Source of the DNA: Lentisphaerota bacterium
Lineage (GTDB): Bacteria > Verrucomicrobiota > Lentisphaeria > Victivallales > UBA1829
Length of the DNA stretch: 64,000 nucleotides
Assembly (NCBI GenBank): GCA_015061915.1
Contig: SUVR01000011.1
Span: 22,972-86,971, forward strand
Direction of reading: 5' to 3'
Positions 11,635-61,229 of the stretch are shown in pieces (position 1 is the stretch's first letter; every line of letters begins with the position of its first letter). The position numbers and the translations under genes were made by a program. The notes beneath the pieces were generated by a model. It saw nothing but the letters and a program-made list of their open reading frames with translations, did no database searches and was not told the origin of the DNA.

Positions 11635-13047
11635 TTATTCTGTCAGGGATTTTGCCCAGACGGAGAGGGAATTATCCCGTGCCCCCATAACGACGACCGT
11701 TTCACAGCCGGTCAGGTTGGCTTTCAGGAAGTCCTCTGCTTCGGTACGATTGGAAAAACAGGGATATCGTTCCGGTTTTCCGGAGCGGGTCCGGTAGTCT
11801 TCCGCCACTTCGCAGGCACTGGGCTTGAAACTGCTGGTGCCGCCCGCATAGTAAACCGGCAGCAGTCCGAAGATGTCTCCATCCTCCAGCTTTTCTTCCA
11901 GCATCTCAAAAAGGACTTCTCTCATATCGCCGAAAGGTTTGAACCCGTGTGGCTGGAACAGCAGAACGACTCTGCCGCAGGAAATGCTTTTTGCCGCATC
12001 CAGACAGGAGATGATCTTTTCCGGATTGTGTGCATAATCGTCATAGACCGGGCAGCCGTTTTTCATCCTGCCTGCCAGATCAAACCGGCGCCAGACTCCA
12101 TTGAAATCGGTGGCTGCTTTGTATGCCGCATCTTTGGCAAAGCCCATCTGGATCAGAACGCCGTAGACCGCCAGCGTGTTCAACGCATTGTGATGCCCCG
12201 GCGCCCGCATGGCTGTTTCCGGGTGAGAATCGAACGCACAAAACGCACCGCCGCAGCCCGCATGGTAGGAGTCCAGTTCCAGACAGGGATAATCCGCCGG
12301 AACGGGGTCGGTGCTGTCCCGGAAGACAAGCACATTTTTCCCCGCGCAGACTTCTGTGCCGACTGCTGCAAGAACGGATGATGCAAGCACAATGTTGCGC
12401 CGGGTATTCCGGATGAACTGCCGGAACACTTCCGCCAGAACATCTTTCGGATAATGGTCGGTACCGATGTTCAGGATCACCGCTGTGTCCGCAGTGTAAT
12501 TCAGCAGACTTTTATCGCTTTCGTCTGCTTCGACAACAAAGATCTTTCCCGCACCCGCCCGGAAGTTCCCCGCAAGGGAATCAGAGACAAAGGCGTTGAC
12601 CAATCCGCCGCAGATCACCCCCGGTTCCGCTCCGAGATGATACAGCGCCTCTGCCAGCTGCGAGGTCACACTGGTCTTTCCGCAAGTCCCTGCAACGGCA
12701 ATCATATTTTCCGTCTGAACGGACTCCACCAGATACTTCAGTGCATCGGAACGGTGCAGCCGGGGCGTTCCTGCCGGGGCTTTGGCAAAGTCCGGATTGT
12801 CTTCTTCAATGGCGGTGGAATAGACCAAGGCATCCGGAGTCACTTCATCGTAGACCGAACCATCCTGGGGGAAGATCCGGACTCCCTGTGCCTTCAGGGC
12901 GTTGAAGATCCGGGCATTTTCCGGCGATGCCGCCGCCCGGTCGCTGCCGGTGGTAACGATCCCCTGTGCCGCACTCATCTGGGCAAGGGCGCTCATACCG
13001 ATGCCGCCTGCACCGACAAAATGCAGAGACGTGAATTTTTTGCTCAT
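11635..13047 (-). CDS. murC: UDP-N-acetylmuramate--L-alanine ligase (Mur ligase family)
   Basis: 470 aa. It has the N-terminal HFVGAGGIGMSALA Rossmann motif typical of MurC and the Mur-ligase P-loop AVAGTCGKTS. The MurC versus Mpl call rests on the N-terminal motif only. Confidence 0.8.
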   Translation of the reverse strand: MSKKFTSLHFVGAGGIGMSALAQMSAAQGIVTTGSDRAAASPENARIFNALKAQGVRIFPQDGSVYDEVTPDALVYSTAIEEDNPDFAKAPAGTPRLHRSDALKYLVESVQTENMIAVAGTCGKTSVTSQLAEALYHLGAEPGVICGGLVNAFVSDSLAGNFRAGAGKIFVVEADESDKSLLNYTADTAVILNIGTDHYPKDVLAEVFRQFIRNTRRNIVLASSVLAAVGTEVCAGKNVLVFRDSTDPVPADYPCLELDSYHAGCGGAFCAFDSHPETAMRAPGHHNALNTLAVYGVLIQMGFAKDAAYKAATDFNGVWRRFDLAGRMKNGCPVYDDYAHNPEKIISCLDAAKSISCGRVVLLFQPHGFKPFGDMREVLFEMLEEKLEDGDIFGLLPVYYAGGTSSFKPSACEVAEDYRTRSGKPERYPCFSNRTEAEDFLKANLTGCETVVVMGARDNSLSVWAKSLTE

Positions 13048-56042: not shown

Positions 56043-56591
56043 TTATTCACCGAAGTAACGCTTGAGGAGGCCGGTGAACGCCTGACCGTGACGGGCTTCA
56101 TCGCGAGCCATTTCGTGGACGGTGTCGTGGATGGCATCGTAGCCCAGTTCCTTGGCGCGCTTTGCGATGTCGAACTTGCCGGCGCAGGCGCCGTTTTCCG
56201 CTTCGCAGCGCATCTTCAGGTTGGTCTTCGTGCAGGGAACCACCACTTCACCGAGGAGTTCGGCAAACTTGGCAGCGTGTTCCGCTTCTTCCCATGCGAT
56301 CCGCTTGTAGGCTTCCGCAACTTCCGGATAGCCTTCACGATCCGCCTGACGGCTCATGGCGAGGTACATCCCGACTTCCGTGCATTCGCCCATGAAGTGG
56401 GCTTTGAGGCCTTCCAGCACTTCCGGATCAACGTTCTTGCCGACGCCGATCACGTGTTCCGCTGCCCAGGTGACGCTCACGTCAGCCATTTCTTTGAACT
56501 TGCTGCCCGGGACTTTGCACTGGGGGCAGAATTCCGGAGCTTCGTTACCTTCGTGGACATAACCGCACGCGGGGCATACAAACTTTTTCAT
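56043..56591 (-). CDS. rbr: Rubrerythrin with an N-terminal rubredoxin-like domain (reverse rubrerythrin)
   Basis: The start is at 56591 ([11 protein letters not shown]...CPQC). It has diiron four-helix-bundle motifs ([18 protein letters not shown]). Confidence 0.9.
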
Positions 56592-56650
56592 AGCTTTGTT
56601 CCTTTCATGTTTTCTGTTGTTTTGTTGGTAAGCTATAAATTTGTAGTTGT

Positions 56651-56678
56651 TACAAAACTGAATATACTGCAATTTTGT
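56651..56678 (-). promoter_or_regulatory. rbr-perR promoter with an overlapping 7-6-7 inverted repeat (candidate PerR/Fur operator)
   Basis: On the minus strand: TTGCAA, 17 nt, TATATT. TGCAATT (56658-56664) and AATTGCA (56671-56677) are perfect inverted repeats. The pair spans the -35 element and the -35/-10 spacer. Confidence 0.45.
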
Positions 56679-56712
56679 AGAATTGCAAGCGACTTTTTAA
56701 AAATTTTTCAAC

Positions 56713-56753
56713 TTTTTTTGATTTTTTTGATTTTTTTGATTTTTTTGATTTTT
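56713..56753. repeat. 4.5 tandem copies of TTTTTTTGA (phased T-tracts)
   Basis: There are T7-GA x4, then T5. The array lies in the divergent rbr / serine-hydrolase intergenic region, 35-80 bp upstream of the rbr -35 element. Confidence 0.9.
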
Positions 56754-56915
56754 GCCTCATTTCTCTGTTATTTTACCGATGAAAACGGCAGTATTTTCCA
56801 TCCGTTTCCGTACCCATCCGTATTTATCCTTAATATTTCAGTGTGCGGCGCTTGAAATCGGGCGGTATTGCACTACATTATTTTATCATTGACTTAATAT
56901 GAAAGGATCAAACTC

Positions 56916-58061
56916 ATGTTTACGAAACTGACAGAACTGATGGACCACATGCTGGAGATGGGCATCCCCGGCACCGGAATCGTGGTGAAGCAGCACGGAA
57001 AAGAGATCTACCGCTATGTGAACGGTTATTCCGACCGGGAAAACAGGATCCCCATGCGGGGCGATGAGCGTTTCTACATCTATTCCTGCTCGAAAGTCGC
57101 AACTTGTACTGCAGCGCTGATGCTCTGGGAACAGGGAAAGTACGATCTCGATGATGATCTGGGCAAGTATATGCCGGAATATTACGATATTACTGTCGGG
57201 ACGGAAGATGGACCCCGTCCGGCGAACACAAAAATCAAGATCCGCGACCTGTTCCGCATGACCAGCGGGCTGGACTACTGGCTGACCTGTCCTCCCCTCG
57301 TGGAAGCGGTGGAAAAGACCGGCGGACGCTGTCCCACCCGGGAAACGATTGCTTATCTGGCGAAACACCCGCTGATCTGCGACCCCGGCACAGAGTGGCA
57401 TTACAGTTTGTCCCACGACGTCCTTGCGGCGCTGGTGGAAGTCATTTCCGGCGAAAAGTTTGAAGATTTTGTGCAGAAAAATATCTTTGCGCCTCTGGGA
57501 ATCACCCATTCCACCTTCATCGCCCGGGAAGCCGATCTTCCCACCATTGCGCCCCTCTATCGGAACAATCAGAAGCCGGGCGAAGACAAGCCCCGGATCG
57601 AGATTTTTGAAAGAGGCAATGAGTATCAGCTCGGTCCGGAATACGCCAGCGGCGGTGCGGGCTGCGTTTCCACGCTGGATGATTACAGCACCTTCCTCGA
57701 AGGGCTGAAGGACGGCAAACTCCTGAAGCCGGAAACGCTCAAGATCATGACCACGGACCAGATCTGCAACGAAGGTCAGCGCAAGACCCACGACCAGTGG
57801 TGCGGCAGCGGGACCTACGGATACGGCCTGGGCGTGCGGTGTCCGCCTTCCGAGGGCGAAGTGCTGGTGACGGACTTCGGCTGGGGCGGTGCCGCCGGAG
57901 CTTATCTGGCGATCGATCCCGCGTACGATCTGACGGTCTTCTATGTTCAGCACGTTCTCATGTCTCCCAACGCGCCGCTGCGCAGTAAGATCCTGCCTAC
58001 CATCAAGGAGTGTCTGACCGGCGCAGAAGCTGCCACCGGCGCCCATCGGGACGGCATTTGA
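56916..58061 (+). CDS. Serine hydrolase, beta-lactamase (class C / PBP-like) family
   Basis: 381 aa with the SxxK motif (YSCSKVAT), a YSLSHD (YxN-like) motif, and a TTGAAA-N16-TACATT promoter upstream. Confidence 0.8.
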   Translation: MFTKLTELMDHMLEMGIPGTGIVVKQHGKEIYRYVNGYSDRENRIPMRGDERFYIYSCSKVATCTAALMLWEQGKYDLDDDLGKYMPEYYDITVGTEDGPRPANTKIKIRDLFRMTSGLDYWLTCPPLVEAVEKTGGRCPTRETIAYLAKHPLICDPGTEWHYSLSHDVLAALVEVISGEKFEDFVQKNIFAPLGITHSTFIAREADLPTIAPLYRNNQKPGEDKPRIEIFERGNEYQLGPEYASGGAGCVSTLDDYSTFLEGLKDGKLLKPETLKIMTTDQICNEGQRKTHDQWCGSGTYGYGLGVRCPPSEGEVLVTDFGWGGAAGAYLAIDPAYDLTVFYVQHVLMSPNAPLRSKILPTIKECLTGAEAATGAHRDGI

Positions 58062-58078
58062 TCTGACTTTGTGAGGGA

Positions 58079-58098
58079 AGAAAAAAGGGAAAATTTTT
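58079..58098 (+). repeat. Left copy of the 20-bp direct repeat AGAAAAAAGGGAAAATTTTT
   Basis: It is identical to 60363-60382. Confidence 0.95.
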
Positions 58099-58206
58099 GT
58101 AGCTTCATGCAAGATTATAGTTGCTTTTGACGCAAGGTTTATCGGCTGGAGATGGTGCTACTATGGCTCTTTTTTTAATTGAAGCGTTTTATATGAAAGG
58201 ATGACA

Positions 58207-58767
58207 ATGAGATTTAAGGAAATTCATGGTGTAGAGGAATTTGATTTAATGGATGATAGTAAATATCTGAAGCATGGAGGTATCTTTCTAAAAGAATTTA
58301 TTGATAGTGTTTCAGATAACTTGGAAATTTATAAGAAGTCTAAAAGCAGGTTTAAAGTAGAAATAGAATTTCATACATGGGACTTTACGAAAAAATCTAC
58401 TTTTGAAAATGATGTTCTTGCTGTAGAAGATGTTTTTAAGGCGGACAAGCGTGTCTCAATAGACGATATACTCTCGTTTATTCTTACTTCGATGAAAACG
58501 TGTTTTGACATACATAAGCGTGAATCCTTTGCAAATGATGCATCGATTTCCATTAAAATTACTAATGAGCGTAACGGAAGAACTTATATACATAAAGAGT
58601 GCAACCCCGTTTTAACTTATGTCCATTATAAGTTAACCGAGGAAAAAGACTCTAATTTCAGAGACTATATAAAAGTCGTACAATTCTTCATTGGAGATTG
58701 GGGGAAGCGTATGCACTTTTTTAATAGCACTCACATTAGATTAGAGCACGAAGGAACTGATATATGA
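58207..58767 (+). CDS. Orphan protein (~186 aa), no recognisable motif
   Basis: ATGs occur at 58201 and 58207. GAAAGG abuts the first, so 58207 has the better spacing. The protein is soluble with no TM or signal peptide. Its stop overlaps the helicase start (ATGA). Confidence 0.7.
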   Translation: MRFKEIHGVEEFDLMDDSKYLKHGGIFLKEFIDSVSDNLEIYKKSKSRFKVEIEFHTWDFTKKSTFENDVLAVEDVFKADKRVSIDDILSFILTSMKTCFDIHKRESFANDASISIKITNERNGRTYIHKECNPVLTYVHYKLTEEKDSNFRDYIKVVQFFIGDWGKRMHFFNSTHIRLEHEGTDI

Positions 58768-60248
58768 TTATGTTAAGACCTTATCAGACAGAATCAATCA
58801 ATAAAATCGCAGAGAAGAACGGAAGACTTCTTGTAAACGCTCCTTGCGGTTCAGGTAAGACTTTCATCGCTCTTTATCTTCGTAAGCAGTACCCCGGTCT
58901 CAAGAAAGTCCTCATCATCTGCCCTGCGTCAGTTAAACTCCAGTGGGCAGAAGTAATTAAGGAGACTTTCCCCTCCGATACAGTTCACATTGCGAAAGGT
59001 GCTTATAAGAATGAATACGCTCACAATATTATCAATTCAGACTTCGTAATCATCAATTACGATATTCTGTTCAGTAGAAATGCTGAACGATCTTGGACTG
59101 ATATGCTTAAGCGAGCGGGATTTACTCTTATGGTAGTTGATGAATCACACAACTTAGCGAATAAGGAATCAAACAGGTCTCAGTGTGTACACGAACTTGC
59201 GAAGGAGATTAAATACAGAATCCTTCTTACAGCAACTCCTATCACAAGTAATATCTCGGGACTTTGGGGACAGCTTCATATCCTTGATCCACTTGAGTTT
59301 ACATCTCTCAATAAGTTTTTGAACTACTTCGCCCCCCCAGATTCTCAGACAATTATTGCCAAAAGCGGTAAGCATGTGAGAGATGCATTGAAGACATTTC
59401 AACCGCAGCTCAACAAGTTTTTGGACTACTGCACTCCCCCTGTTCCTCAGACGACTATTGCAAAAGGCGGTAAGTGTGTGAGAGACAGAAAACCGGGGGC
59501 TGTAAAACATCTCGACGAGTTGCAGGGACTTATCCGTGAATACTGTTACGTAATTAGCCCTGATGAAGTCTATAAGCACCTCGCAGGTGTTCAGAGAATC
59601 AATGTTCCCTGTGTAGTTGAGAGCAAGCGAGTTTCTGATATGCTTTCTAAACTCAAAAGACATTCTCTCAGTAACAGTTCTGATGAGAAGAAAGCGAAGG
59701 AACTGCTCGCCTCCACTCGTATGGAACTTGGTAAGGCTAAGGTTGATGCAGGTGTTGCTTGGATTAAGGACTGGCTAAATGGAACTGATGAAAAGATTGT
59801 AGTGTTCGCATACCATCGTTCCGTAGTTGAACTTACAGCGGAAAGACTTGGAAATGTTGCTGTCAAGTTCTACGGTGGTATGTCAACAACAGAGAAGAAC
59901 AACGCTGTGAACGCTTTCGTTAACAATCCTGATGTAAGAGTCATCGTGATGAATATGGCGGCTTGTACAGGCGTTGACGGATTGCAGTTGGCTCGCGCTT
60001 GTTTCTATATGGAGAACACATCTCTTGCGTCTCTGTATCAGCAGTCTGAAGGGCGTATCAGAAGAACGAACAGTACTTATGATGCGTACTTTGCTTACAG
60101 ATTGGTAGCGGATGTGCTTGACCCTCAGATTCTCAGCGTGATGAATAGCAGATGGGAGATGACTGACGCTATCATGACTGGAGGAGAGATCACTACTAAT
60201 GGAAATGATGAACTTGAAGTTATTAAGAGATTGCAGAAAGGAGAATGA
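58764..60248 (+). CDS. Compact SNF2-family (SF2) helicase/ATPase, 494 aa
   Basis: LRPYQ (Q-like motif), motif I NAPCGSGKT, motif II VVDESHNL, motif III LLTATPI, motif V MAACTGVDG, motif VI QQSEGRIRR. It has an in-frame internal tandem duplication between motifs III and IV. Confidence 0.85.
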   Translation: MIMLRPYQTESINKIAEKNGRLLVNAPCGSGKTFIALYLRKQYPGLKKVLIICPASVKLQWAEVIKETFPSDTVHIAKGAYKNEYAHNIINSDFVIINYDILFSRNAERSWTDMLKRAGFTLMVVDESHNLANKESNRSQCVHELAKEIKYRILLTATPITSNISGLWGQLHILDPLEFTSLNKFLNYFAPPDSQTIIAKSGKHVRDALKTFQPQLNKFLDYCTPPVPQTTIAKGGKCVRDRKPGAVKHLDELQGLIREYCYVISPDEVYKHLAGVQRINVPCVVESKRVSDMLSKLKRHSLSNSSDEKKAKELLASTRMELGKAKVDAGVAWIKDWLNGTDEKIVVFAYHRSVVELTAERLGNVAVKFYGGMSTTEKNNAVNAFVNNPDVRVIVMNMAACTGVDGLQLARACFYMENTSLASLYQQSEGRIRRTNSTYDAYFAYRLVADVLDPQILSVMNSRWEMTDAIMTGGEITTNGNDELEVIKRLQKGE

Positions 60249-60362
60249 ATCCCTGAAATGATATGAATTTATCGCCAGCACGGAATATAAATAATTTTTT
60301 AGTAGTAGATGCCAAGTTTCCCTTTGAGAACCGGATTTTTTTCTTTTATCAAGAATATAATG

Positions 60363-60382
60363 AGAAAAAAGGGAAAATTTTT
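60363..60382 (+). repeat. Right copy of the 20-bp direct repeat AGAAAAAAGGGAAAATTTTT
   Basis: It is identical to 58079-58098. Confidence 0.95.
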
Positions 60383-60393
60383 ATGGGTCACTC

Positions 60394-60422
60394 TTGAAAA
60401 TAATTTTCATTAGTGATATATT
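60394..60422 (+). promoter_or_regulatory. Promoter of the IclR-family gene
   Basis: TTGAAA, 17 nt, TATATT, immediately right of the island border. Confidence 0.45.
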
Positions 60423-60455
60423 GAACGGGAAATAAACTCAGTTCAGGAGATTTTT

Positions 60456-61229
60456 ATGGCAAAAAAACAGACAGCAAAAAGCCCGTCGTATCTGGTCCCC
60501 GCATTGGAACGGGGCTTGAAAATATTGGAACTGCTGGCAGAAAATCCCGGCGGACTGCTCATGGGTGAGATGGGGGCGCTGGATCTGCCGTCCGCCAGCC
60601 TCTACCGGATGCTGGTCACCCTGACGGAAATGGGGTATGTTGTGCGGGACAACGGGGACCGCTATCATCTCGGCAGAAAACTGCTGACTCTCGGGTACAA
60701 GGGGCTGGATCACGCAGGGCTGCCGGAGAAATCCGCCGCACCCATGCGTGCGCTGCGGAATGCGGTCAATGAAACGGTCGTGCTTGGGGTGCTGTCCGGC
60801 GGGGAAGGGGTCGTGCTGGATACGGTCCGGTCGGAGCAGGCGGTTTGCGTTTCGGTGCGGATCGGACATCATTTTCCTCTGCATACGGCGGCTCCGGCGA
60901 AAGCGATCCTGGCGTTTCTGCCGGAAGATGAACTGGAAAGTCAGTTGAAAAAGATTGTTTACACCAAGTTTACGGACCGGACCCTCACCAGCCGGAAAGC
61001 CCTGCTTGCGGAGCTGAAAAAAGTCCGGAGCGAGGGCGTGGCGTACGATCTCGGGGAGGAAATCAGCGATCTGCGCTGTGTTGCCGCTCCCGTGTTTGAC
61101 AGCCGGTCTTATCCGGTGGGTGCGATCTGGATCACGGGACCGGAATCCCGTTTGAACGAAGAAAAATTGCGGTCGATGGCGGCACAGGTGAAAGCGACGG
61201 CGGATCAGATCGGCTTAAATATTATCTGA
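60456..61229 (+). CDS. IclR-family transcriptional regulator
   Basis: 257 aa with an N-terminal wHTH (ALERGLKILELL) and a C-terminal IclR effector-binding domain. Confidence 0.9.
   Translation: MAKKQTAKSPSYLVPALERGLKILELLAENPGGLLMGEMGALDLPSASLYRMLVTLTEMGYVVRDNGDRYHLGRKLLTLGYKGLDHAGLPEKSAAPMRALRNAVNETVVLGVLSGGEGVVLDTVRSEQAVCVSVRIGHHFPLHTAAPAKAILAFLPEDELESQLKKIVYTKFTDRTLTSRKALLAELKKVRSEGVAYDLGEEISDLRCVAAPVFDSRSYPVGAIWITGPESRLNEEKLRSMAAQVKATADQIGLNII

What the first reader, a model, noticed from the sequence alone, without database searches (positions are those of the whole stretch)
58079..60382. AT-rich 2.3-kb insertion bounded by a perfect 20-bp direct repeat, carrying only an orphan protein plus a compact SNF2 helicase
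The sequence shows five things directly.
- Base composition collapses at 58.08 kb and recovers at 60.38 kb, roughly 35-40% GC inside against ~57% in both flanks.
- AGAAAAAAGGGAAAATTTTT is present at 58079-58098 and again at 60363-60382. Deleting the insert plus one repeat would leave a simple intergenic region between the serine-hydrolase gene and the IclR promoter.
- The insert holds exactly two ORFs whose stop and start overlap (ATGA at 58764-58767), so they are probably translationally coupled.
- There is no integrase, transposase, tRNA or terminal inverted repeat inside.
- I see no host-type TTGAMA-N17-TATATT promoter and no terminator between the upstream gene and the cassette, so it may be read through from the serine-hydrolase gene.

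A minimal horizontally acquired 'unknown small protein + SF2 helicase' cassette is the kind of architecture seen in many anti-phage defence systems. I cannot match it to a named system from motifs alone. It is not Hachiman-like, because the helicase is SNF2-type and not Ski2-like. It also carries none of the methylase, nuclease or PLD partners found in DISARM or Zorya.

The alternative is a stranded fragment of a phage replication module.
Basis: partly seen in the sequence, partly recalled or inferred. Interest (0 to 1): 0.8.

Follow-up and report, generated by a model that had tools for sequence, protein, structure and literature searches.

The report
Captured phage helicase gene fragment
A 2.3-kb AT-rich insert in a gut Lentisphaeria chromosome is a piece of the replication-gene block of an uncultured ~85-99 kb phage (an orphan gene plus an SNF2 helicase), not a recognisable defence system; a sister lineage still has the empty site.

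Summary
The AT-rich island, the perfect 20-bp direct repeat, the two overlapping ORFs and the lack of mobility genes are all present. A related Lentisphaeria MAG carries the empty site with a single copy of the 20-mer.

The defence-cassette reading is not supported.
- The central 2.1 kb is 83-93% identical in DNA to AT-rich, co-directional, phage-like contigs of 38-99 kb. There the same pair always follows a thioredoxin-reductase-like gene, with PolA, a methylase, RtcB and homing endonucleases nearby.
- The insert still carries the last ~56 bp of that upstream phage gene.
- Known defence models give only generic SNF2 hits, far below curated cut-offs.

After capture, the locus recombined with related phages. 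A second host allele has identical junctions, but its orphan protein is only 25% identical and it lacks the window's 102-bp in-frame helicase duplication.

Two findings leave domestication open. The vertically shared half of the helicase shows purifying selection (pN/pS about 0.09). A second isolated pair sits in another, probably bacterial, context.

This is a new member of a known kind, of moderate interest.

The parts
56916..58061 (+). Host upstream flank: beta-lactamase-family serine hydrolase gene. It points the same way as the insert, with no terminator detected after it.
   Evidence: PF00144, 1.4e-61. It is 95% identical in the empty-site MAG. No terminator-like site follows it.
58079..58098 (.). 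Left copy of the 20-bp direct repeat AGAAAAAAGGGAAAATTTTT. This is host target sequence, present once in the empty site.
   Evidence: In host alleles B and A' this copy has T4 instead of T5.
58099..58144 (.). Left filler of 46 bp and unknown origin. It has only weak, gapped resemblance to the phage trxB-like 3' region.
   Evidence: No match in the phage loci or elsewhere in the window. The in-register similarity in alignment A7 is inconclusive. It differs at 1 position between host alleles A and B.
58145..58204 (+). 3' remnant (last ~19 codons plus stop) of the phage thioredoxin-reductase-like (Pyr_redox_2) gene. This shows the fragment was cut inside a phage gene.
   Evidence: The window translation ...AGDGATMALFLIEAFYMKG* matches phage L007 ...AAGDGATQALSLIEEFNTRG*. 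blastn homology to L007, L110 and L111 starts at window 58143-58145.
58207..58767 (+). ORF1, 186 aa. It belongs to a very small, fast-evolving phage protein family whose fetched members lie immediately upstream of the SNF2 helicase gene. Function is unknown.
   Evidence: No Pfam, PADLOC or NCBIfam hit. Only 7 proteins were found among 5.8 billion and 11 representatives among 1.84 billion. AlphaFold2 gave pLDDT 80.8, and Foldseek found nothing at E<=0.001. It is 72% identical to the ORF in phage contig L007.
58764..60248 (+). SNF2-family helicase, 494 aa, of the phage replication type (phrog_62). Its start overlaps the ORF1 stop (ATGA).
   Evidence: PF00176 1.5e-20, ResIII and Helicase_C. phrog_62 'DNA helicase' 3.4e-71 over residues 2-489. 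The GSGKT, DESH, TATP and QQSEGRIRR motifs are aligned and conserved. It is 89-90% identical in protein to the 460-aa phage and allele-B versions.
59307..59510 (+). In-frame 102-bp partial tandem duplication (59307-59408 and 59409-59510). It is unique to this host allele and adds 34 aa in a variable loop after motif III. It sits at the boundary between the heavily and lightly diverged parts of the gene.
   Evidence: The copies are 82% identical over 77 nt at a spacing of 102. It is absent from all 460-aa relatives. blastn matches L007 10544-10619 twice. A-versus-B differences number 49 in nt 1-650 and 8 in nt 651-1383.
60249..60362 (.). Right filler of 114 bp, AT-rich (31% GC) and of unknown origin. 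Phage homology ends at the helicase stop codon.
   Evidence: No match in the phage loci, the window or IMG/VR. No significant fold. No credible Rfam hit (one match at E 0.56, below gathering). About 6 differences between host alleles A and B, counted by eye on the alignment.
60363..60382 (.). Right copy of the 20-bp direct repeat.
60394..60422 (+). Host promoter-like site (TTGAAA-17-TATATT) for the IclR gene. It lies just outside the insert and is intact in the empty site.
   Evidence: 10 of 12 matches, with TG extension. The sequence is conserved in L016.
60456..61229 (+). Host downstream flank: IclR-family regulator gene.
   Evidence: PF09339 and PF01614. It directly follows the single 20-mer in the empty-site MAG.

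Best explanation
**What it is.** The insert is a 2,264-bp piece of foreign DNA plus a 20-bp duplication of the host target. It was captured once by a Lentisphaeria lineage. The donor was the early/replication gene block of an uncultured, AT-rich phage lineage of roughly 85-99 kb.

**Shown.**
- The phage-derived core is 58145-60248. It comprises the last ~56 bp of the phage thioredoxin-reductase-like gene, the fast-evolving orphan ORF1, and the SNF2 replication-type helicase.
- The target 20-mer existed once in the host before the insertion.
- All occupied host alleles share the same junctions.

**Inferred: how it got in.** Entry was by illegitimate joining, not by site-specific recombination or transposition. 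The likely route is template switching or fill-in at a staggered break in an A/T-rich intergenic tract. That would explain the 20-bp duplication, the 46-bp and 114-bp filler segments, a left end that falls inside a gene, and the absence of any recombinase or terminal repeats.

**Inferred: what happened afterwards.** The resident copy then served as a homology patch for related phages infecting the same host.
- One exchange replaced ORF1 and the 5' ~650 nt of the helicase with another phage allele. The ORF1 types A and B are only 25% identical.
- In the window's allele, the right-hand crossover of that exchange left the 102-bp in-frame duplication.

**Inferred: expression and function.**
- Any expression would come from read-through from the upstream serine-hydrolase gene, with ORF1 and the helicase translationally coupled.
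- In the phage, the helicase most likely acts as a dsDNA translocase or fork-remodelling motor in replication and recombination.
- ORF1 occupies a hypervariable slot typical of host-interaction genes.
- Whether the host uses either protein is unresolved.
For: **Phage origin**
- blastn aligns window 58145-59382 with L007 9381-10619 at 83.5% and window 59409-60248 with L007 10544-11383 at 92.6%.
- Host allele B is colinear with phage contigs L110 and L111 at 89% across the trxB remnant, ORF1 and the helicase.
- The related contigs share these features:
  - They are 38-99 kb long. L007 and L008 are 38-39% GC.
  - Their genes are co-directional.
  - They carry PolA, a C5 methylase, RtcB, YopX, GP88, DUF932, SprT and T4-endoV-like genes.
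  - They also carry HNH and SegE-like GIY-YIG homing endonucleases.
  - In the more distant L014 there are also a primase, a DnaC-like loader and a minor head protein.
- Three contigs of 85-89 kb from different samples carry the same helicase at different offsets, which points to a permuted or circular genome.
- The helicase matches phrog_62 over its full length at 3.4e-71.
- The trxB remnant is in the insert.

**A single, polymorphic insertion**
- The empty site has one 20-mer.
- The junctions are identical in alleles A, A' and B.

**Recombination after capture**
- ORF1 of A and B is 25% identical, while the flanks are 92-97% identical.
- Both ORF1 types occur in phages whose helicases are 86-96% identical to each other.
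- A-versus-B differences number 49 in nt 1-650 and 8 in nt 651-1383, and the switch falls at the duplication.

**No mobility machinery**
-.

**Shared habitat**
- Host allele B and the phage contigs come from the same sample series, SAMN188176xx to SAMN188177xx.
Against: - No capsid, portal or terminase gene was seen on the closest contigs (L007, L110). Only +/-10 kb around the helicase could be fetched, so 'phage' rests on gene content, architecture and contig sizes.
- The exact donor is unknown. The 46-bp and 114-bp ends match nothing, so microhomology at the junctions, and therefore the joining mechanism, could not be tested.
- A 20-bp duplication is unusual for simple illegitimate recombination.
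- The ORFs are intact, and the vertically shared helicase half has pN/pS about 0.09 (binomial P = 0.002). This suggests function in the host rather than an inert relic.
- A second isolated ORF1-helicase pair with its own trxB remnant lies in a ~50% GC, probably bacterial, context. Two captures trimmed to the same two genes are not what random fragment capture predicts.
Confidence: 0.7

Rival explanations
1. The insert is a domesticated, phage-derived anti-phage or exclusion module. The host keeps and expresses the helicase, together with a hypervariable partner (ORF1) that sets specificity against related phages. The ORF1 allele swaps reflect an arms race.
For: - Both ORFs are intact in every host allele fetched.
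- Helicase codons 218-460 of A versus B give pS 0.038 and pN 0.0035 (P = 0.002). pS equals the divergence of the adjacent non-coding sequence, 8 in 207.
- About 4.5% of point substitutions in these genes would create stop codons, yet none is seen.
- ORF1 is hypervariable beside a conserved helicase. ORF1 of A versus A' shows about 10 non-synonymous and 1 synonymous change.
- A second isolated pair lies in another context.
Against: - No defence model matches above threshold.
- The surroundings are not a defence island.
- No effector domain such as a nuclease, a PLD or a methylase is present.
- There is no promoter of its own.
- Nearly all homologues sit in phage replication regions.
- The mosaic identity to phages means that intactness and low dN/dS could come from repeated overwriting by phage alleles, with the selection acting in the phage.
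- Only 8 substitutions underlie the key test.
Confidence: 0.15
2. The insert is the remnant of an integrated prophage. The 20-mer would be the att core (attL and attR), and nearly all of the prophage was later deleted on both sides of the helicase pair.
For: - A perfect 20-bp direct repeat bounding AT-rich phage DNA looks like attL and attR.
- The unexplained 46-bp and 114-bp end segments could be the arms of the prophage.
Against: - This needs two large internal deletions that both spared the att sites and left one contiguous phage block.
- No integrase was seen within +/-10 kb of the helicase on the donor-type contigs. The only reverse-strand 423-aa gene is a GIY-YIG homing endonuclease.
- The gene content (PolA, homing endonucleases, RtcB) looks like that of a virulent phage.
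- The 20-mer is absent from the fetched parts of the phage contigs and from IMG/VR.
- No host contig with a larger prophage at this site was found.
Confidence: 0.07
3. The insert is a non-autonomous mobile cassette with defined ends. The unit (trxB 3' end, ORF1, helicase) is moved in trans by a phage or host enzyme, generating a 20-bp target-site duplication. That would explain two chromosomal copies with similar content.
For: - Two isolated pairs lie at unrelated loci. Each starts within the last ~60-110 bp of the trxB-like gene and carries no other phage gene.
- The insert sizes are similar, about 2.2-2.3 kb.
- The duplication is a clean 20 bp.
Against: - There are no terminal inverted repeats, no conserved end sequences shared by the two inserts and no structured end.
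- The flanking repeat at the second locus is not significant.
- In the phages the pair is embedded in tightly packed genes with no repeat around it.
- All 30-plus host contigs of the window's species complex have it at one site only.
Confidence: 0.08
4. The insert is an assembly artefact: phage reads mis-joined into a host contig.
For: The composition changes abruptly at a low-complexity A/T-rich 20-mer.
Against: - The fetched contigs that reach a junction show identical junctions. They come from JGI, ENA (MEGAHIT) and Logan assemblies of different samples.
- Three diverged host alleles share the same junctions.
- The insert's flanks have diverged in step with the host sequence.
Confidence: 0.01

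Closest known systems
Phage replication-module SNF2-type DNA helicases (PHROG family phrog_62, annotated 'DNA helicase' in Arthrobacter, Gordonia, Flavobacterium and Bacteroides phages)
   Same: - The match to phrog_62 is full-length (3.4e-71).
- tblastn finds 496 phage records, of which 103 cover at least 80% of the protein.
- 511 IMG/VR stretches encode relatives.
- In the related contigs it lies among PolA, primase and loader genes.
- It is a compact SNF2 core of about 460 aa with no extra domains.
   Different: - It is only 22-28% identical to any helicase in deposited phage genomes or IMG/VR.
- Here it sits in a bacterial chromosome, without the rest of the module.
- It carries a 34-aa in-frame duplication.
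Cryptic prophage remnants and laterally acquired phage gene islands in bacterial chromosomes
   Same: - It is an AT-rich island of phage genes bounded by direct repeats.
- It is polymorphic between close lineages, with an intact empty site.
   Different: - There is no integrase, no tRNA or att-type target, and no other prophage genes.
- The left end cuts inside a phage gene.
- The donor looks like a large virulent-type phage.
- So this looks more like the capture of a fragment from a non-integrating virus than like the decay of a lysogen. That comparison rests on my own knowledge of endogenous viral elements.
Defence systems that use an SNF2 helicase: DISARM (DrmD), Zorya type I (ZorD), Dpd (DpdE), PbeABCD (PbeA), Hma (HmaA)
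   Same: The N-terminal RecA lobe aligns with these models at E 1e-14 to 1e-17 in PADLOC. The layout is a small unknown protein next to a helicase.
   Different: - Scores are far below the curated cut-offs: 78.7 against 610, 69.9 against 500, 17 against 1500.
- The matches cover only the shared ATPase core of proteins 650-1300 aa long.
- None of the partner genes (DrmABC plus methylase, ZorABC, the dpd cluster) is in the insert or beside it.
Archaeal and eukaryotic SNF2 motors with solved structures (Sulfolobus SNF2/Rad54-like 1z63; RapA; ISWI; SMARCAL1-like names given by JGI to relatives)
   Same: The N-lobe matches 1z63 at 4.7e-18 and RapA at about 3e-11. The conserved helicase motifs are present.
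   Different: - It has no HARP, chromo, SANT or RapA N-terminal domains.
- Only the N-terminal ~200 residues align to any solved chain by sequence.
- No activity was tested. The annealing-helicase or fork-remodelling role is an inference from the family.

Membership tests
SNF2 family (SF2 helicase-like ATPases) | SNF2-related N-terminal domain and Helicase_C domain above the Pfam gathering scores | tested here: met
   PF00176 scores 73.9 bits against a cut-off of 24.9. PF00271 scores 25.9 bits against 23.5.
SNF2 family (SF2 helicase-like ATPases) | Intact Walker A (GSGKT), motif II (DESH), motif III (TATP) and motif VI (QxxGRxxR) | tested here: met
   G29, G31, K32, T33, D126, E127, H129, T158, P159, Q427, R431 and R434 are invariant in the 12-sequence alignment and present in the window protein.
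Phage DNA helicase family phrog_62 | Full-length match to the PHROG profile, and relatives located in phage genomes | tested here: met
   3.4e-71 over residues 2-489. Relatives at 40-90% identity lie in phage-like contigs. There are 496 phage records by tblastn.
DISARM | DrmD equivalog score at or above the curated cut-off | tested here: not met
   NF038317 scores 78.7 bits against a cut-off of 610, and only residues 46-180 match.
DISARM | Neighbouring drmA, drmB, drmC (PLD) and methylase genes | tested here: not met
   The insert holds only two ORFs. The neighbours are a serine hydrolase, IclR, an SDR, an FAD oxidoreductase, rubrerythrin and Fur.
Zorya type I | ZorD (SNF2 plus Mrr-like nuclease) score above the cut-off, with the zorABC motor genes present | tested here: not met
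   NF041790 scores 17.2 bits against a cut-off of 1500. There is no nuclease domain and there are no ZorABC genes.
Dpd (7-deazaguanine DNA modification/restriction) | DpdE score above the cut-off within a dpd gene cluster | tested here: not met
   NF041062 scores 69.9 bits against a cut-off of 500. There is no dpd cluster.
Integrated prophage or phage satellite | An integrase or recombinase gene, and att sites that match a site in the phage | tested here: not met
   There is no recombinase domain in the insert. The 20-mer is absent from the fetched phage loci and from IMG/VR. The complete donor genome was not available.
Insertion sequence, transposon or MITE | Terminal inverted repeats and/or a transposase, with a short fixed-length target-site duplication | tested here: not met
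   No terminal inverted repeat was found; the best inverted pairs are internal and weak. There is no transposase. A 20-bp duplication is present, but from my own knowledge it is longer than is usual for transposases.
Integron gene cassette | A structured attC site at the 3' end of the cassette | tested here: not met
   The 134-nt right end folds no better than shuffled sequence on either strand (z = -0.75 and -0.58). The only Rfam match is at E 0.56, below the gathering score.
Phage-to-host captured gene fragment (illegitimate insertion) | Contiguous high DNA identity to a phage genome segment, breakpoints unrelated to gene boundaries, an empty site in relatives, and no mobility genes | tested here: met
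   DNA identity is 83-93% over 2.1 kb. The left breakpoint is inside the trxB-like gene. An empty site exists. There are no mobility genes. The virion genes of the donor were not seen.

The most novel reading that the evidence does not exclude
The ORF1-SNF2 pair is a phage module that bacteria have recruited at least twice, independently, and keep under selection. The conserved helicase would be the motor, and the hypervariable ORF1, periodically re-sampled from infecting phages by recombination, would set specificity. It would act as a decoy or exclusion system against the very phages it came from. That would be the bacterial counterpart of immunity derived from endogenous viral elements, taken from a non-integrating phage.
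Probability: 0.15. Interest if true: 0.75.

Novelty: new member of a known kind. Interest (0 to 1): 0.4.

Why it matters
**A well-resolved capture event.** This is an unusually clean example of a bacterium capturing a fragment of a large, probably virulent, phage. Four things are all visible together:
- the occupied and empty sites;
- the donor lineage, at 83-93% DNA identity;
- the exact junctions, with a 20-bp duplication and filler DNA;
- later allele replacement by recombination with related phages.

**A host-phage link.** It ties an uncultured ruminant-gut Lentisphaeria lineage to an uncharacterised group of ~85-99 kb phages. Recombination requires both DNAs to be in the same cell.

**A hypervariable phage locus.** ORF1 is one of about 11 representatives among 1.8 billion proteins, and it sits in a variable slot next to a conserved replication helicase.

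**If domestication were confirmed.** It would be an example of phage-derived genes re-used by the host. As it stands, this is an informative but ordinary kind of event, and it removes a false lead for a new defence system.

Tried and rejected
**Searches that found nothing**
- DNA and ORF1-protein searches of GenBank phages found nothing.
- The IMG/VR scan with the single helicase found nothing. With the alignment it found only relatives at 22-28% identity.
- The 20-mer and the right-flank scan of IMG/VR were negative.

**An uninformative negative**
- The exact empty-junction scan of metagenome contigs gave nothing.
- The real empty site differs from my pattern by one base.
- That collection also gave no hit for a 20-mer taken from inside the occupied insert, although JGI metagenome contigs do carry the insert. 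So the collection appears not to hold these contigs, and the negative result says nothing either way.

**ORF1 function**
- Two AlphaFold2 models were made (pLDDT 70 and 81).
- Three Foldseek searches (PDB twice, BFVD once) gave no hit at E<=0.001.
- Weak resemblances to PmbA/TldD, MHC-like platforms and DUF600 were rejected as noise.

**Mechanism ideas rejected**
- Integron attC or a structured end: rejected.
- Terminal inverted repeats: rejected.
- A serine integrase on the phage: rejected. The gene with the HTH_7 hit is a SegE-like GIY-YIG endonuclease.
- A flanking direct repeat at the second locus (L114): not significant against shuffles.
- Decay of a longer trxB remnant as the source of the left 46 bp: inconclusive.

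**Other**
- Two literature searches returned nothing specific.


Full report
**1. The observation**

- The 20-mer AGAAAAAAGGGAAAATTTTT lies at 58079-58098 and 60363-60382. It occurs nowhere else in the 64-kb window, even with three mismatches allowed (0.01 expected).
- GC falls to 0.31-0.46 between the repeats, against 0.54-0.64 outside. No other low-GC stretch longer than 1 kb exists in the window.
- Two ORFs fill the insert. ORF1 runs 58207-58767. Homologues start at MRFKE, so the in-frame ATG at 58201 is not the start. The SNF2 helicase runs 58764-60248. Their ATGA overlap is at 58764-58767.
- There is no recombinase domain, no tRNA and no terminal inverted repeat.
- There is no sigma-70-like promoter upstream of ORF1 and no terminator after the upstream gene.

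**2. The empty site exists**

A scan of one genome per GTDB species with the upstream serine-hydrolase protein returned a 2.4-kb contig of Lentisphaeria MAG RGIG8655 from water deer cecum (JAGAPM010000066.1).
- It is about 95% identical to the window's flanks.
- It goes straight from the hydrolase gene, through a single copy of the 20-mer, into the IclR promoter and gene.
- L016 1-1990 matches window 56090-58098 and L016 1971-2388 matches 60363-60781. The overlap is exactly the 20-mer.

So the 20-mer is host sequence that was duplicated, or recombined at, when 2,264 bp of foreign DNA arrived.

The occupied state is not an assembly artefact. One search read 23 contigs carrying the identical helicase, from JGI and ENA assemblies. 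The fetched ones are 99.9-100% identical to the window, and those that reach a junction include it.

**3. Where the DNA came from**

*The helicase family.* The helicase is a compact SNF2 protein (PF00176, ResIII, Helicase_C). Its best profile match by far is the phage family phrog_62, 'DNA helicase', at 3.4e-71 over residues 2-489.

*The close relatives.* In the 5.8-billion-protein collection its close relatives are 460-466 aa long. Apart from the host-site alleles described in section 4 and one other locus described in section 7, every relative I could place lies in an AT-rich, phage-like contig of up to 99 kb. L007 and L008 are 38-39% GC.
- Genes run in one direction.
- The order is thioredoxin-reductase-like gene, small ORF, SNF2 helicase.
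- Downstream come a C5 methylase, PolA and RtcB.
- YopX, GP88, DUF932, SprT-like, T4-endoV-like and amidoligase genes and homing endonucleases are also present.
- In a more distant member, a primase, a DnaC-like loader and a minor head protein sit nearby.
- Contigs of 85, 87 and 89 kb from three samples carry the identical helicase at different offsets, as expected for a permuted or circular phage genome.

*Identity at the DNA level.*
- Window 58145-59382 matches contig L007 at 83.5%, and 59409-60248 matches it at 92.6%.
- Homology starts about 56 bp before the stop codon of the phage thioredoxin-reductase-like gene. The window still encodes ...AGDGATMALFLIEAFYMKG*, against the phage's ...AAGDGATQALSLIEEFNTRG*.
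- Homology ends at the helicase stop codon.

The insert is therefore a fragment cut out of a phage genome, with its left end inside a gene.

*The unexplained ends.* The outer 46 bp (58099-58144) and 114 bp (60249-60362) match nothing I could search. They are unstructured.

*A caveat.* Only +/-10 kb of each contig could be fetched, so no capsid or terminase gene was seen on the closest contigs. The PolA is only about 23% identical to those of deposited phages. This is an uncharacterised phage group.

**4. What happened after capture**

*A second host allele.* Allele B (contigs L019-L025, L108 and L109) has the same insertion with identical left and right junctions. That means one insertion event. 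The allele differs inside:
- Its helicase is 460 aa and lacks the window's 102-bp in-frame duplication.
- Its ORF1 (185 aa) is only 25% identical to the window's.

*Both ORF1 types occur in phages.* They accompany helicases that are 86-96% identical to each other. Allele B is colinear with phage contigs L110 and L111 at 89%. Allele A is colinear with L007.

*Where A and B differ.* Within the helicase, there are 49 differences in nt 1-650 and only 8 in nt 651-1383. The switch falls at the duplication, 59307-59510.

*The simplest reading.* A related phage recombined with the resident copy and replaced ORF1 and the 5' part of the helicase. The left crossover was in the conserved trxB remnant. In the window's lineage the right crossover was unequal, which left a partial duplication: 77 nt at 82% identity plus about 25 nt of new sequence.

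*Further points.*
- A third host variant, L026, carries the A-type ORF1 at 96% identity.
- Allele A and phage L110 are 100% identical across seven of the overlapping 60-nt windows in the helicase's 3' part. This also points to exchange between host copy and phage.
- Such exchange requires these phages to enter this host. Allele B and the phage contigs come from the same sample series.

**5. Is it a defence system?**

I found no positive evidence that it is.
- PADLOC gives nothing for ORF1. For the helicase it gives only partial SNF2-core hits: PbeA, DrmD, ZorD, HmaA and DpdE at 1e-13 to 1e-17.
- NCBIfam equivalog scores are far below cut-off: DrmD 78.7 against 610, DpdE 69.9 against 500, ZorD 17 against 1500.
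- No partner genes are present, and the neighbourhood is metabolic and regulatory.

*ORF1.* Its family is tiny: 7 proteins among 5.8 billion and 11 representatives among 1.84 billion. Every member I could place lies directly upstream of such a helicase. A reasonably confident model (pLDDT 80.8, repeated beta-beta-alpha units) has no structural neighbour at E<=0.001. Its function remains unknown. Its extreme divergence next to a conserved helicase is the pattern of a phage host-interaction or accessory gene. That last point is my inference.

**6. Evidence that keeps domestication open: selection**

- In the helicase half that A and B appear to share by descent (codons 218-460), pS is 0.038. That equals the divergence of the adjacent non-coding DNA, 8 in 207.
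- pN in the same half is 0.0035 (6 synonymous and 2 non-synonymous changes; binomial P = 0.002).
- About 4.5% of random substitutions in these genes would create stop codons. None is seen in any allele.
- This is what purifying selection in the host would give. It rests on only eight substitutions, though, and repeated overwriting by phage alleles could mimic it.

**7. Evidence that keeps domestication open: a second isolated pair**

- Contigs L114 and L115 carry a distant ORF1 homologue (156 aa) and a helicase 58% identical to the window's.
- The pair forms a 30-43% GC island in a ~50% GC context.
- The neighbours are a HIT-family gene, a lipoprotein, and BNR, pectate-lyase-like and GDSL-lipase genes on mixed strands. 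This is probably a bacterial chromosome.
- It too keeps a trxB 3' remnant (...KQAIIAAGSGATCAMNIITEG*) and no other phage gene.
- Two captures trimmed to the same two genes suggest either selection for the pair or a module with preferred ends.

**8. Mechanism of insertion**

*Shown:*
- one event;
- a 20-bp duplication of an A/T-rich host target;
- a left end inside a gene;
- unexplained filler at both ends;
- no recombinase, att-like match, terminal repeat or structured end.

*Inferred:* the joining was illegitimate. The likely routes are template switching during replication or repair, or fill-in at a staggered break with capture of phage DNA. Microhomology could not be examined without the exact donor.

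*Rivals:* the prophage-remnant and trans-mobilised-cassette explanations remain possible at low probability.

**9. Verdict**

- The structural inference of an insertion with a duplicated target is proven by the empty site.
- The defence reading is not supported.
Two things add to it: later recombination with phages remodelled the locus, and there is a modest, unproven hint that the host retains the helicase under selection.
- This is a new member of a known kind, of moderate interest.

Noticed in passing
L114:320-2700 and L115:1060-3440: A second isolated ORF1-homologue plus SNF2-helicase pair (156 aa and 464 aa). It forms a 30-43% GC island in a ~50% GC context, with HIT-family, lipoprotein, BNR, pectate-lyase-like and GDSL-lipase neighbours. 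It has its own trxB 3' remnant upstream. It may be an independent capture in another bacterium.
   Followed up: partly
window:59307-59510: A 102-bp in-frame partial tandem duplication inside the helicase (copies 82% identical over 77 nt, plus ~25 nt of new sequence). It is absent from all 460-aa relatives. It sits where divergence between the two host alleles switches from high to low.
   Followed up: yes
L007:9444-10004, L110:10001-10558, L107:9459-10004, L010:9505-9999: In the phages, ORF1 is a hypervariable slot. Helicases 86-96% identical to each other are preceded by ORF1 proteins only 24-35% identical, between conserved flanks (the trxB 3' end and the helicase 5' end).
   Followed up: partly
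L007:12468-13136 (TAG at 12831): The gene caller's 222-aa product, which I read as HNH-endonuclease-like from its Cys/His pattern (no profile search was run), contains an in-frame TAG. This could mean stop-codon recoding in this phage group, a pseudogene or a sequencing error.
   Followed up: no
window:53178-53470: An 87-bp unit repeated 3.4 times in tandem (91% matches), in a region where only short ORFs were called. Function is unknown.
   Followed up: no
window:55338-55571: The AT-rich intergenic region between the nitronate-monooxygenase-like and Fur-family genes holds nested tandem repeats with periods of 9, 20, 34 and 54 bp (motif TTCCGCATTTACTTCCTGCA).
   Followed up: no
window:56703-56753: TTTTTTTGA repeated 4.6 times in the divergent intergenic region between the rubrerythrin gene and the serine-hydrolase gene.
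   Followed up: no
L014:7051-8214 and L110:18111-19382: The related phage contigs carry selfish elements: a TnpB-like gene (Cas12f1-like_TNB, phrog_506 'transposase') and a SegE-like GIY-YIG homing endonuclease on the opposite strand.
   Followed up: partly
L019:2826-2845 and L026:111-130 (equivalent to window 58079-58098): In host alleles B and A', the left copy of the 20-mer has four T's at its end instead of five. The repeat is therefore perfect only in the window's allele.
   Followed up: yes
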